In this document: in pieces, positions 47,044 to 47,962 of the stretch
How positions within the stretch are numbered: position 1 is the stretch's first letter
How the letters are laid out: each line of letters begins with the position of its first letter
Notes under the pieces: model-generated
The model's database searches: none
What the model saw: only the letters and a program-made list of their open reading frames with translations
Told to the model about the DNA's origin: nothing
From: Escherichia coli
Lineage (GTDB): Bacteria > Pseudomonadota > Gammaproteobacteria > Enterobacterales > Enterobacteriaceae
Assembly (NCBI RefSeq): GCF_044647545.1
Contig: NZ_CP172818.1
Strand: one strand, 5' to 3'
Length of the DNA stretch: 64,000 nt
Made by a program: the position numbers and the translations under genes

Positions 47044-47962
47044 ATATTATCACTTACTGGCGGCTCATACTGAGCTGGTTAATGCTGTGCACACACAAAC
47101 AAGCAATTCCATTTGTAATGTGCCTCCCTGGCAGTTTCATCCGGAACCCGGACGAAAGTAAAAATGCATATGAGTTGCACTAAAAAAGCGACTCACATTG
47201 TTCCGTTATAATGCCTGAAGTAGATCACAGAATATATCTTCAGGAATCGCATATCTATTAAGTTACTCACTCTTTTGTATTTATGACATGCGCGTGTTTG
47301 TATAAATGTAAATGTGAGTCCTTGTTCCACTCTCGTGCAGCATCGCTGGTCATACGCGAACACGTACAAACAGCAATGGTGAGGCGGCATCAAGAGCAGG
47401 GATCCGTCATTTATGCGAGCATTTTACCCCAAAAACCTTTTATTTATAAGGGTCATTGCGAATTATCTGATGCAAAGTTATGTTATGTTAGGCAAAGTAA
47501 TCTTCTATTATTAATAAGCACAACAAAACCTTTTTGAATATTAAATAATAATTAATTAGCATCATCCTCATACATTAATCCCGCTTAACAATAGTTTCAC
47601 ACCTTGCACCCATTACGACACATCGGAAATCATCACGCTGTTAAACTCTCCGTAATGCGGAAATATCATCATCACGATTCATTAGTGAATTCTTAAACGA
47701 GGCATTTTCAAACAATTATCTTACAGATAAAAAAACCACACTCACAATTAAGAATCAGAACAATTCACTACATAACATTAATTATTAAGCATATACACCT
47801 CATTATTTTGCCATTATTAAGTTATTAACAGCACAATCAAGCCTTCCACTCTGGCAAAATCTTATTCTGCAGACCTTCAAAACGCCGTCCTGGGGGAGTA
47901 CATTGTTCTAAGCTGACTTCCACGGCAGGGAGTGGCGATAACAGCAAAAAAGGTCAAGATTC
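47044..47962. promoter_or_regulatory. about 0.9-kb AT-rich non-coding region holding the lrhA promoter/leader (minus) and alaA promoter (plus)
   Basis: Only short, low-complexity ORFs without RBS; strong AT bias. Confidence 0.4.

What the first reader, a model, noticed from the sequence alone, without database searches (positions are those of the whole stretch)
47044..47962. Unusually long (about 0.9 kb) AT-rich non-coding region between lrhA and alaA
This is the longest stretch in the window without a credible ORF. It is strongly AT-rich and contains repeated short motifs (AAAACCTTTT at about 47438 and 47526; TATAAT-like hexamers). Regions like this typically hold long 5' leaders with several promoters, nucleoid-protein binding, or unannotated small RNAs or small proteins. 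The ORF-track entries here (47283..47537 plus, 47193..47393 minus) have no SD and low-complexity translations, so I do not call them.
Basis: seen in the sequence. Interest (0 to 1): 0.3.

Follow-up and report, generated by a model that had tools for sequence, protein, structure and literature searches.

The report
Known lrhA leader and promoter spacer
The 919-base gene-free stretch is the well-studied E. coli control region between lrhA and alaA: a 371-base untranslated leader of the motility regulator lrhA, targeted by small RNAs, Hfq and CsrA, plus a 496-base AT-rich gap between the two promoters and a short alaA leader, so it is real but already explained.

Summary
Window 47044-47962 is a 919-bp ORF-free gap with 37.9% GC (window 51.6%), between lrhA (-) and alaA (+) of E. 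coli. It is the longest such gap in the window.

It has three parts:
- **lrhA 5' leader, 47044-47414 (- strand, 371 nt).** The published TSS falls at window 47414. This leader is a documented post-transcriptional hub. UhpU, ArcZ and RprA repress it, McaS forms chimeras with it, Hfq binds fragments of it, and a CsrA CLIP peak lies at 47073-47159.
- **Inter-TSS spacer, 47415-47910 (496 bp, 33% GC).** It carries the lrhA promoter (TTATAA-17-TAAAAT) and the alaA promoter (TTCAAA-17-TACATT). Published Lrp and OmpR ChIP signals map to this locus.
- **alaA leader, 47911-47962 (52 nt).**

In 79 Enterobacteriaceae species the divergent arrangement and both promoters are conserved, and so is the lrhA-proximal ~100 nt of the leader. 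The rest is not conserved.

No Rfam family, no independent sRNA gene and no conserved small ORF was found. The AAAACCTTTT repeat is at chance level.

Two observations may be new. The spacer length is held at about 496 bp although its sequence diverges. An invariant palindrome or hairpin sits in the alaA leader.

Verdict: already known, low interest.

The parts
47044..47414 (-). lrhA 5' untranslated leader, 371 nt
   Evidence: A TSS is listed at 2405034(-) in U00096.2 with a 371-nt 5'UTR (Kim 2012 supplement). Primer SM079 ends ATAAATGACGGATCCCTGCT, the reverse complement of window 47395-47414. Melamed 2023 states a 371-nt 5'UTR. MFE is -112.2 kcal/mol, z = -2.38.
47055..47075 (-). UhpU pairing site, overlapping a small hairpin (GCUCA-GUA-UGAGC, 47063-47075) just upstream of the ribosome-binding region
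   Evidence: My duplex scan gives -32..-12 pairing with UhpU AACUGGUG... (E = -20.1). The published lrhA-M1 compensatory mutation is C to G at -16, which is window 47059 (gBlock; genetics). The hairpin arms differ between genera (GCUCA/UGAGC in E. coli, GGUCA/UGACC in Salmonella and Citrobacter), read from the alignment.
47083..47090 (-). GCACAGCA motif, complementary to the UGCUGUG(U/C) core shared by RprA, McaS and the ArcZ 5' part
   Evidence: CAYAGC is present in 65 of 69 distinct orthologous leaders. sRNA sequences were fetched. Assigning this as the RprA/McaS site is inference.
47073..47159 (-). CsrA CLIP-seq peak, with two GGA motifs (CCAGGGAGG at 47123-47131 and AAAUGGAAUUGCUU at 47101-47114); the predicted ArcZ site (47121-47137) overlaps the first
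   Evidence: Potts 2017 peak_226 spans 2406671-2406757, and lrhA ribosome footprints and RNA rise in the csrA mutant. GGA is kept in 54/69 (site 1) and 66/69 (site 2) leaders, with median spacing 17 nt. The ArcZ duplex has E = -19.7.
47093..47093 (-). RNA 3' end inside the leader (-50 from the ATG); gives a ~322-nt leader fragment
   Evidence: Term-seq 3' end at 2406691(-), scored not Rho-dependent (Adams 2021 supplement). It fits the ~350-nt Hfq-bound band.
47329..47377 (-). Predicted stable hairpin at leader +38..+74 (47341-47377), followed by RNA 3' ends at +80 and +86 (47335, 47329)
   Evidence: The hairpin is in the MFE and centroid folds. Term-seq 3' ends are at 2406933 and 2406927. No U-tract follows, so it is not an intrinsic terminator (sequence).
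47178..47190 (.). Recurrent IS insertion point in the leader (about -135 to -147)
   Evidence: IS1 in E. coli DSM 498 splits the match at 47178/47190. IS5 sits at -137 of lrhA in a Keio strain.
47421..47449 (-). lrhA core promoter: -35 TTATAA (47444-47449), 17-bp spacer, -10 TAAAAT (47421-47426)
   Evidence: Read from the sequence upstream of the mapped TSS. The -35 TTATAA is found in 64/79 species and the -10 is TAAGAT or TAAAAT in 58/79. RNAP holoenzyme SELEX peaks are listed at 2405036.
47415..47910 (.). Inter-TSS spacer, 496 bp, 33% GC, between divergent promoters; sequence mostly unconserved but length conserved
   Evidence: GC and lengths are. Spacer length has q1 490, median 496, q3 499 in 79 species, while the central 256 bp is only 0.34 identical to E. 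coli. Lrp and OmpR bind at this locus, but their sites are not positioned. The spacer is named as a long TF-rich spacer.
47535..47606 (.). Conserved island about 120-190 bp upstream of the lrhA TSS: GTGAAA-N-TTGTTAAG-N5-ATTAATG ... AATTAATTATTATTTAATATT; candidate transcription-factor site(s)
   Evidence: Conservation is 0.47-0.67 against about 0.3 in the flanks. The blocks are visible in the alignment. The bound factor is not identified.
47876..47911 (+). alaA core promoter TTCAAA (47876-47881), 17-bp spacer, TACATT (47899-47904), TSS at 47911
   Evidence: TSS at 2405531(+) with 231 reads and a 52-nt 5'UTR. Both hexamers fall in blocks conserved in more than 80-95% of 79 species.
47911..47962 (+). 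alaA 5' leader, 52 nt, containing an invariant palindrome or hairpin CUUCC-ACGGCA-GGGAG (core 47916-47933)
   Evidence: The leader is 46-53 nt in 79 species. CCACGGCAGG is invariant in 73 sequences. The helix is 88.7% paired, against 34-62% when slid. 3 of 8 pairs change on both sides. Function is unknown.
47432..47441 (+). AAAACCTTTT copy 1, in the lrhA promoter spacer; copy 2 is at 47525-47534
   Evidence: Positions are. The repeat is at chance level. It is not conserved as a repeat.

Best explanation
The region is the shared regulatory region of the divergent genes lrhA and alaA. It has three functional parts.

**1. The lrhA leader (47044-47414, - strand, 371 nt).**
- It sets LrhA output after transcription.
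[quoted passage not shown] McaS also binds it.
- CsrA binds a conserved pair of GGA motifs at -60 to -90.
- The pairing and binding sites cluster in the last ~100 nt next to the ribosome-binding site. That stretch is the only part of the leader conserved across Enterobacteriaceae.
- The leader is also cut or ends prematurely, giving Hfq-bound fragments.

**2. The inter-TSS spacer (47415-47910, 496 bp, AT-rich).**
- It holds the weak sigma-70-type lrhA promoter at one end and the alaA promoter at the other.
- Global regulators (Lrp, OmpR, and LrhA itself) act somewhere in it.
- It contains no gene.

**3. The alaA leader (47911-47962, 52 nt).**

**Basis of each step.**
- Shown by published data located here on the sequence: the TSSs, the UhpU pairing, the CsrA CLIP peak, Hfq binding and the RNA 3' ends.
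- Shown here: the conservation pattern and the absence of conserved ORFs or Rfam families.
- Inferred: the exact ArcZ, RprA and McaS sites, the promoter hexamers, and which proteins occupy which part of the spacer.
For: **Identity and boundaries**

**Transcription start sites and promoters**
- The lrhA TSS (371-nt UTR) and the alaA TSS (52-nt UTR) are adjacent rows of a genome-wide TSS table, with no other TSS between them.
- The lrhA +1 is confirmed by the primer that starts the published PBAD-lrhA-lacZ fusion.
- RNAP holoenzyme SELEX peaks lie at the lrhA promoter.

**Post-transcriptional control of the leader**
- UhpU, ArcZ and RprA repress lrhA-lacZ, and the UhpU pairing is proven by compensatory mutation. 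I mapped that mutation to window 47059, inside my predicted duplex.
- Hfq co-IP recovers leader fragments, and lrhA mRNA is up in an hfq mutant.
- A CsrA CLIP peak lies at 47073-47159, and lrhA is derepressed in a csrA mutant.
- Term-seq 3' ends lie at 47093 and at 47329/47335.

**Regulators and insertions in the intergenic region**
- Lrp ChIP-seq plus RNA-seq classes lrhA as a direct Lrp target.
- OmpR ChIP signal is elevated at this intergenic region.
- Transposon or IS insertions in the region change lrhA/pigU expression.

**Comparative analysis done here (79 species)**
- The divergent arrangement is kept, with an intergenic region of 764-1140 bp.
- Both promoters are conserved.
- The leader's last ~100 nt is conserved, including GGA-N17-GGA and CAYAGC.
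- No ORF is conserved.
- There is no Rfam match.
Against: - The TSS evidence I could read is one dataset plus one paper's statement.
- Bilusic et al. report RNAs of about 1.5 kb and 1.25 kb, and an older annotation had a short lrhA 5'UTR, so transcript architecture may be more complex.
- RNAalifold found no consensus structure in the conserved part of the leader, so the structural claims (GGA in hairpin loops, the pre-SD hairpin) rest on reading the alignment by eye.
- The binding positions of Lrp, OmpR and LrhA inside the spacer are not known to me.
- The window is not K-12 (about 97% identity to MG1655 in this region), so K-12 data are transferred by homology.
Confidence: 0.9

Rival explanations
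1. The region encodes one or more independent, unannotated small RNA genes (for example the 'ig-lrhA-alaA' Hfq-bound RNAs) with their own promoter, acting in trans.
For: - Hfq co-IP detected 150-nt and 350-nt species from this region, and the authors first classed them as intergenic RNA.
- Term-seq classes the 3' ends at 47093 and 47329/47335 as 'orphan'.
- McaS gives many chimeras with the leader but does not regulate lrhA-lacZ, which suggests an RNA-RNA role other than lrhA control.
Against: - All these species lie on the lrhA strand, downstream of the single mapped lrhA TSS. Their sizes fit fragments starting at that TSS: 47414 to 47093 is 322 nt.
- No other TSS is listed in the spacer.
- No terminator-like site was found in the intergenic region.
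- There is no Rfam match.
- The middle of the leader is not conserved.
Confidence: 0.08
2. The region hides a small protein gene or a regulatory upstream ORF.
For: - Mechanical ORFs of 25-84 aa exist on both strands.
- An AUG lies at +5 of the leader (sequence).
Against: - The 84-aa and 66-aa ORFs have in-frame stops even in another Escherichia genome.
- The only apparently 'conserved' peptide (36 aa, antisense to the alaA promoter) is explained by DNA conservation of that promoter, and many species have stops in it.
- The AUG at +5 is not conserved.
Confidence: 0.03
3. The AT-rich spacer is horizontally acquired or neutral filler DNA silenced by H-NS, without specific function.
For: - GC is 33% and sequence conservation is low across most of 47600-47856.
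- The spacer holds no mapped transcript.
Against: - The same divergent arrangement with a similarly AT-rich intergenic region is present in all 78 other species examined, so it is ancestral rather than acquired.
- The spacer length is constrained (IQR 490-499 bp) far more tightly than the equally divergent leader middle.
- Conserved islands are present.
- H-NS is not flagged for this spacer in the SELEX table.
Confidence: 0.05

Closest known systems
lrhA 5'UTR of E. coli K-12 as described by Melamed et al. 2023 (eLife, PMC10578931), Bilusic et al. 2014 (PMC4152368) and Potts et al. 2017 (PMC5694010)
   Same: It is the same locus. The TSS, the 371-nt length, the UhpU pairing nucleotide and the CsrA CLIP peak sequence all map onto the window, with only a few SNPs relative to K-12.
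   Different: The window comes from a non-K-12 E. coli, about 97% identical to MG1655 in the intergenic region. No experiment was done on this strain.
Long sRNA-targeted leaders of other lifestyle regulators: rpoS, flhDC and csgD (established knowledge, recalled from memory)
   Same: - A long 5'UTR on a master regulator is hit by several Hfq-dependent sRNAs, with ArcZ, RprA and McaS shared among these targets.
- Pairing sites lie near the ribosome-binding site.
- CsrA also acts on flhDC.
   Different: - The outcome here is repression by three sRNAs and no effect of McaS, whereas rpoS is activated by ArcZ and RprA.
- The leader's conserved part is only the last ~100 nt.
csgD-csgB (755 bp) and nanC-fimB (1.46 kb) long divergent 'type-A' spacers (Shimada et al. 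2014, PMC3946193)
   Same: This is a very long AT-rich spacer between divergent promoters of stress or lifestyle genes, proposed to hold many transcription-factor sites. The paper names the 920-bp lrhA-alaA spacer in the same sentence.
   Different: - 371 bp of the lrhA-alaA 'spacer' is transcribed leader, so the true promoter-to-promoter distance is 496 bp.
- Far fewer regulators are mapped here than at csgD.
alaA-pigU intergenic region of Serratia (Smith et al. 2023 NAR, PMC10810281); HexA, PecT and RovM loci in other Enterobacterales
   Same: This is the orthologous divergent alaA / LysR-regulator arrangement. Insertions in the intergenic region raise expression of the regulator.
   Different: Serratia was not among the 80 loci I retrieved. 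I did not examine its leader length or binding sites.

Membership tests
Hfq/sRNA-regulated long 5' leader | Transcription start far upstream of the start codon | tested here: met
   The published TSS and fusion primer map to window 47414, 371 nt from the ATG. A conserved -35/-10 lies at the right distance.
Hfq/sRNA-regulated long 5' leader | Direct sRNA-mRNA base pairing shown by compensatory mutation | not testable with these tools
   Taken from the literature: UhpU-M1/lrhA-M1. I located the mutated base at window 47059, inside the duplex predicted.
Hfq/sRNA-regulated long 5' leader | Pairing sites conserved in related species | tested here: met
   The last ~100 nt of the leader scores 0.54-0.79 conserved, against about 0.3 for the rest. 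CAYAGC is present in 65/69 leaders.
CsrA-bound leader | GGA motifs, typically two, spaced so that a CsrA dimer can bridge them, often in hairpin loops | tested here: met
   GGA is at 47125-47127 and 47108-47110. The two sites are kept in 54/69 and 66/69 leaders, with median spacing 17 nt. Loop placement was read by eye and from the single-sequence fold only.
CsrA-bound leader | In vivo CsrA crosslinking and a change of expression in a csrA mutant | not testable with these tools
   Taken from the literature: CLIP peak_226, with RPF +1.0 and RNA +0.65 log2 in the csrA mutant.
Curated structured RNA family (riboswitch, leader, sRNA in Rfam 15) | Match to a covariance model at or near the gathering score | tested here: not met
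   The best hits in 45400-48200 score 13-18.5 bits against gathering scores of 45-100.
Conserved structured RNA (unclassified) | Consensus secondary structure with covariation | tested here: inconclusive
   - RNAalifold predicted 0 pairs for the lrhA leader's 3' part.
- The whole-leader fold has z = -2.38.
- The small alaA-leader helix is 88.7% paired, with 3 pairs changed on both sides.
Independent sRNA gene | Own promoter/TSS and own terminator | tested here: not met
   There is no extra TSS in the dataset read and no terminator-like site inside the intergenic region. The 3' ends lie downstream of the lrhA TSS on the same strand.
Small protein gene | Open frame preserved across related species | tested here: not met
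   In-frame stops occur in close relatives for every ORF tested.
Repeat element (REP/ERIC-like or tandem motif) | Repeats more frequent or longer than chance | tested here: not met
   The longest direct repeat is 10 nt, and 53% of shuffles do as well.
H-NS-silenced, horizontally acquired AT-rich island | Patchy distribution among relatives; H-NS occupancy | tested here: not met
   The region is present and syntenic in 5,425 of 5,426 E. coli genomes and in 78 other species. H-NS is not flagged for this spacer in the SELEX table. I did not see H-NS ChIP data.

The most novel reading that the evidence does not exclude
The region may do two things not yet described.

**(a) Length-constrained nucleoprotein scaffold.**
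- The 496-bp inter-promoter spacer is length-constrained (IQR 490-499 bp in 79 species) although its central 256 bp is unalignable.
- This would fit a nucleoprotein architecture, for example Lrp or LrhA wrapping or looping between the conserved island at 47535-47606 and the alaA-proximal blocks.
- Such an architecture would couple amino-acid status, alaA expression and the motility switch.

**(b) Trans-acting leader fragments.**
- The stable leader fragments (5' end at 47414, 3' ends at 47335/47329 and 47093) may act in trans as decoys for McaS, CsrA or Hfq rather than being mere decay products.

A third open item is the invariant CUUCC-ACGGCA-GGRAG element at +5 to +23 of alaA mRNA. It may be the operator or RNA site of an unidentified alaA regulator.
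Probability: 0.2. Interest if true: 0.45.

Novelty: already known. Interest (0 to 1): 0.15.

Why it matters
LrhA sits above flhDC (motility), fimbriae, rpoS/RprA and, in recent work, CRISPR-Cas expression. This intergenic region is therefore where many signals converge on a lifestyle switch: sRNAs, Hfq, CsrA, Lrp, OmpR, and IS or transposon insertions.

All of the main features are already in the literature, so this finding adds no new biology. Its practical value is a base-resolution map of the published elements on this sequence, plus a family-wide conservation picture.

The two small additions would matter only if experiments show they are functional. These are the conserved spacer length despite sequence turnover, and the invariant element in the alaA leader.

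Tried and rejected
- **Rfam scan at permissive E-value:** only sub-threshold noise.
- **Consensus promoter/terminator scan:** 3 promoter-like sites against 3.5 expected. None coincides with either real promoter, because both have weak -35 hexamers.
- **Whole-length RNAduplex of sRNAs against the leader:** this produced meaningless giant-loop duplexes. I replaced it with a 22-nt sliding-window scan. That scan gives several near-equal candidates for RprA and McaS, so those sites stay unassigned.
- **RNAalifold on the conserved 120 nt of the leader:** no consensus pairs. The MAFFT alignment does not register the small variable hairpins.
- **AA/TT 10.5-bp periodicity in the spacer:** the mean over species is 3 times the shuffles, but it is absent in E. 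coli itself and also raised in the leader. I did not use it as evidence.
- **First attempt to measure leader and spacer lengths by fuzzy regex:** it mis-anchored, giving 435 for E. coli instead of 371. I redid it from alignment columns.
- **Sources that gave nothing:**
  - The Cappable-seq supplement held no rows for this coordinate range.
  - Kim 2010 (alaA/Lrp) and Thomason 2015 (dRNA-seq) are not held.
  - The LrhA binding motif of the 2026 NAR paper is only in a figure, so the conserved island could not be tested against it.
- **Repeat-motif idea (AAAACCTTTT):** rejected as chance.
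Full report
**What is there**

The window is an E. coli chromosome segment: nuoCBA, lrhA, alaA, yfbR, yfbS. lrhA occupies 46105-47043 on the minus strand and alaA occupies 47963-49180 on the plus strand. A megablast of 46900-48100 hits 5,425 of 5,426 complete E. coli genomes, always under the features 'lrhA' and 'alaA'. MG1655 RefSeq annotates nothing between the two genes.

The gap 47044-47962 is 919 bp with 37.9% GC against 51.6% for the window, and falls to 30-34% between 47400 and 47900. It is the longest stretch in the window not covered by an ORF of at least 100 aa.

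**Sub-observations that do not hold up**

- AAAACCTTTT is at 47432 and 47525. An exact direct repeat of at least 10 nt occurs in 53% of dinucleotide-preserving shuffles of the region.
- The repeat is not conserved. Copy 1 sits in the lrhA promoter spacer, where only GGTTTT is kept. Copy 2 differs already in E. albertii.
- The simple promoter scan gives 3 hits against 3.5 expected, and none is a real promoter.
- The one peptide that looks conserved is antisense to the alaA promoter. DNA-level conservation of that promoter explains it.

**Anatomy from transcript mapping**

A genome-wide TSS table (Kim et al. 2012, PMC3415461, supplement) lists two consecutive rows for this locus:
- lrhA: TSS 2405034(-), 5'UTR 371 nt.
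- yfbQ/alaA: TSS 2405531(+), 231 reads, 5'UTR 52 nt.

With the coordinate offsets derived, these are window 47414 and 47911. The 51-nt upstream sequences printed in the table match the window.

Independently, primer SM079, used to start the PBAD-lrhA-lacZ fusion at the lrhA +1, ends in ATAAATGACGGATCCCTGCT. This is the reverse complement of 47395-47414.

The region therefore splits into three parts:
- a 371-nt lrhA leader (47044-47414),
- a 496-bp stretch between the two start sites (47415-47910, 33% GC),
- a 52-nt alaA leader (47911-47962, 50% GC).

Reading upstream of each start gives TTATAA-17-TAAAAT for lrhA (47444-47449 and 47421-47426) and TTCAAA-17-TACATT for alaA (47876-47881 and 47899-47904). 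The hexamer assignment is my inference. RNA polymerase holoenzyme SELEX peaks are listed at 2405036, essentially at the lrhA start.

**What the lrhA leader does (published, located here)**

- **sRNAs.** Melamed et al. 2023 describe the 'unusually long 371 nt 5' UTR', with RIL-seq chimeras to UhpU, ArcZ, RprA and McaS. UhpU, ArcZ and RprA repress an lrhA-lacZ fusion. The UhpU pairing is proven by compensatory mutation.
  - The lrhA-M1 gBlock differs from wild type by C to G at -16, which is window 47059.
  - That base lies inside the duplex I predicted for the UhpU 3' region (-32 to -12, 47055-47075).
  - My scan also places the ArcZ seed on CCAGGGA at 47121-47137.
  - It gives several near-equal options for RprA and McaS. 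One is the conserved GCACAGCA at 47083-47090, which is complementary to the UGCUGUG core these sRNAs share. These assignments are inference.
- **Hfq.** Bilusic et al. 2014 co-immunoprecipitated 150-nt and 350-nt species from this leader ('ig-lrhA-alaA') with Hfq. They also found lrhA mRNA elevated in an hfq mutant.
- **CsrA.** Potts et al. 2017 list a CsrA CLIP peak at 2406671-2406757, which is window 47073-47159. lrhA ribosome footprints and RNA are increased in a csrA mutant.
- **RNA 3' ends.** Adams et al. 2021 list 3' ends at 2406691 (window 47093, -50, not Rho-dependent) and at 2406927/2406933 (47329/47335).
  - The latter pair lies 5-11 nt downstream of a strong predicted hairpin at leader +38..+74.
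  - No U-tract follows that hairpin, so these are more likely protected processing ends than intrinsic termination.
  - The 47414-47093 fragment would be 322 nt, which fits the ~350-nt Hfq-bound band.

**What acts on the spacer (published)**

[quoted passage not shown] - Shimada et al. 2014 single out the '920 bp-long lrhA-alaA' spacer as one of the long spacers that carry many transcription-factor sites. Their table does not flag H-NS for it.
- In Serratia, transposon insertions in the orthologous alaA-pigU region raise PigU. The same paper cites an E. coli insertion that overexpresses lrhA.

I could not place any of these proteins at base resolution.

**Comparative analysis done here**

A scan of one genome per species with LrhA returned 80 loci from Enterobacteriaceae.
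- **Arrangement.** In all 78 loci where both genes were on the contig, alaA is divergent from lrhA. The intergenic region is 764-1140 bp (median 943) with 34-44% GC.
- **Conservation relative to E. coli is patchy**:
  - High in the alaA-proximal ~110 bp.
  - High at the lrhA promoter: -35 TTATAA in 64/79 species, and -10 TAAGAT or TAAAAT in 58/79.
  - Moderate in an island at 47535-47606, which reads GTGAAA..TTGTTAAG-N5-ATTAATG..AATTAATTATTATTTAATATT.
  - High in the last ~100 nt of the leader.
  - At background (about 0.3) elsewhere.
- **Conserved leader part.** The second GGA (AAAUGGAAUUGC) is kept in 66/69 distinct sequences and the first in 54/69, with a median spacing of 17 nt. CAYAGC is kept in 65/69 and the AGUGA ribosome-binding region in 67/69. 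This matches the CsrA CLIP peak and the sRNA sites.
- **Structure.** RNAalifold found no consensus structure there. The full leader folds somewhat better than shuffles (z = -2.38). No Rfam family matches.

**Two things I did not find in the papers I read**

First, the distance between the two start sites is held nearly constant: q1 490, median 496, q3 499, maximum 504, with eight shorter outliers.
- The central 256 bp is only 0.34 identical to E. coli, yet its length has an IQR of 250-258.
- The equally divergent middle of the leader varies much more, with q1 313, q3 358 and sd 27.7.
- The species are phylogenetically related, so this is a descriptive contrast and not a test.

Second, the alaA leader carries an invariant CCACGGCAGG inside a palindrome or hairpin, CUUCC-ACGGCA-GGRAG (47916-47933).
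- The helix is 88.7% paired, against 34-62% when the partners are slid.
- Three of eight pairs change on both sides.
- It could be an RNA hairpin or a DNA operator just downstream of the start. I cannot tell which.

**Population view**

The region is 97-100% identical across E. coli and unannotated in all 60 records listed. In 42 of 5,425 genomes no single match covers 80% of it. One example is E. coli DSM 498, which has an IS1 inserted at 47178-47190 in the leader. A Keio strain carries IS5 at -137 of lrhA. The same few bases of the leader have therefore been hit at least twice in laboratory lines.

**Verdict**

However, every major element is already described for E. coli K-12: the 371-nt leader, its sRNA, Hfq and CsrA control, the leader fragments, and the long TF-rich spacer.
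- There is no hidden gene, no new RNA family and no meaningful repeat.
- Novelty: already known.
- Interest: low.
- The conserved spacer length, the possible trans role of the leader fragments and the alaA-leader element are the only leads worth a bench test.

Noticed in passing
window 47415-47910: The distance between the alaA and lrhA start sites is length-conserved (IQR 490-499 bp in 79 species) although the central 256 bp is unalignable. The equally divergent middle of the lrhA leader varies much more in length (IQR 313-358).
   Followed up: partly
window 47916-47933: An invariant CCACGGCAGG sits within the palindrome or hairpin CUUCC-ACGGCA-GGRAG at +5..+23 of the alaA mRNA. It is conserved in 73 orthologues, with some changes on both sides in the outer pairs. 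I know of no regulator for it.
   Followed up: partly
window 47178-47190: IS insertions recur at the same spot of the lrhA leader in K-12 laboratory lines: IS1 in DSM 498 and IS5 at -137 in Keio delta-acrA. In 42 of 5,425 genomes no single match covers 80% of the intergenic region.
   Followed up: partly
window 45476-46150: The nuoA-lrhA gap (629 bp, 35-42% GC) is the second longest ORF-free stretch in the window. Published data place in or next to it a CsrA CLIP peak at the lrhA 3' end / nuoA 5'UTR (about 46047-46150), the lrhA 3' end (about 46074), and a nuoA TSS with a 128-nt leader.
   Followed up: no
L061 (CACSKA010000019.1) and L002 (NZ_JAATUR010000019.1): L061 is titled 'Chryseobacterium sp. 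18061' but carries a typical enterobacterial alaA-lrhA locus, so it is probably a mislabelled or contaminated assembly. L002 is labelled E. coli but its LrhA is only 95% identical to the window's, with many differences in the intergenic region, which suggests a divergent Escherichia lineage.
   Followed up: no
window 47856-47600 in 79 species: AA/TT dinucleotides show about 3-fold excess power at a 10.5-bp period when averaged over species. This is not seen in E. coli itself, and a weaker excess is also present in the leader.
   Followed up: partly
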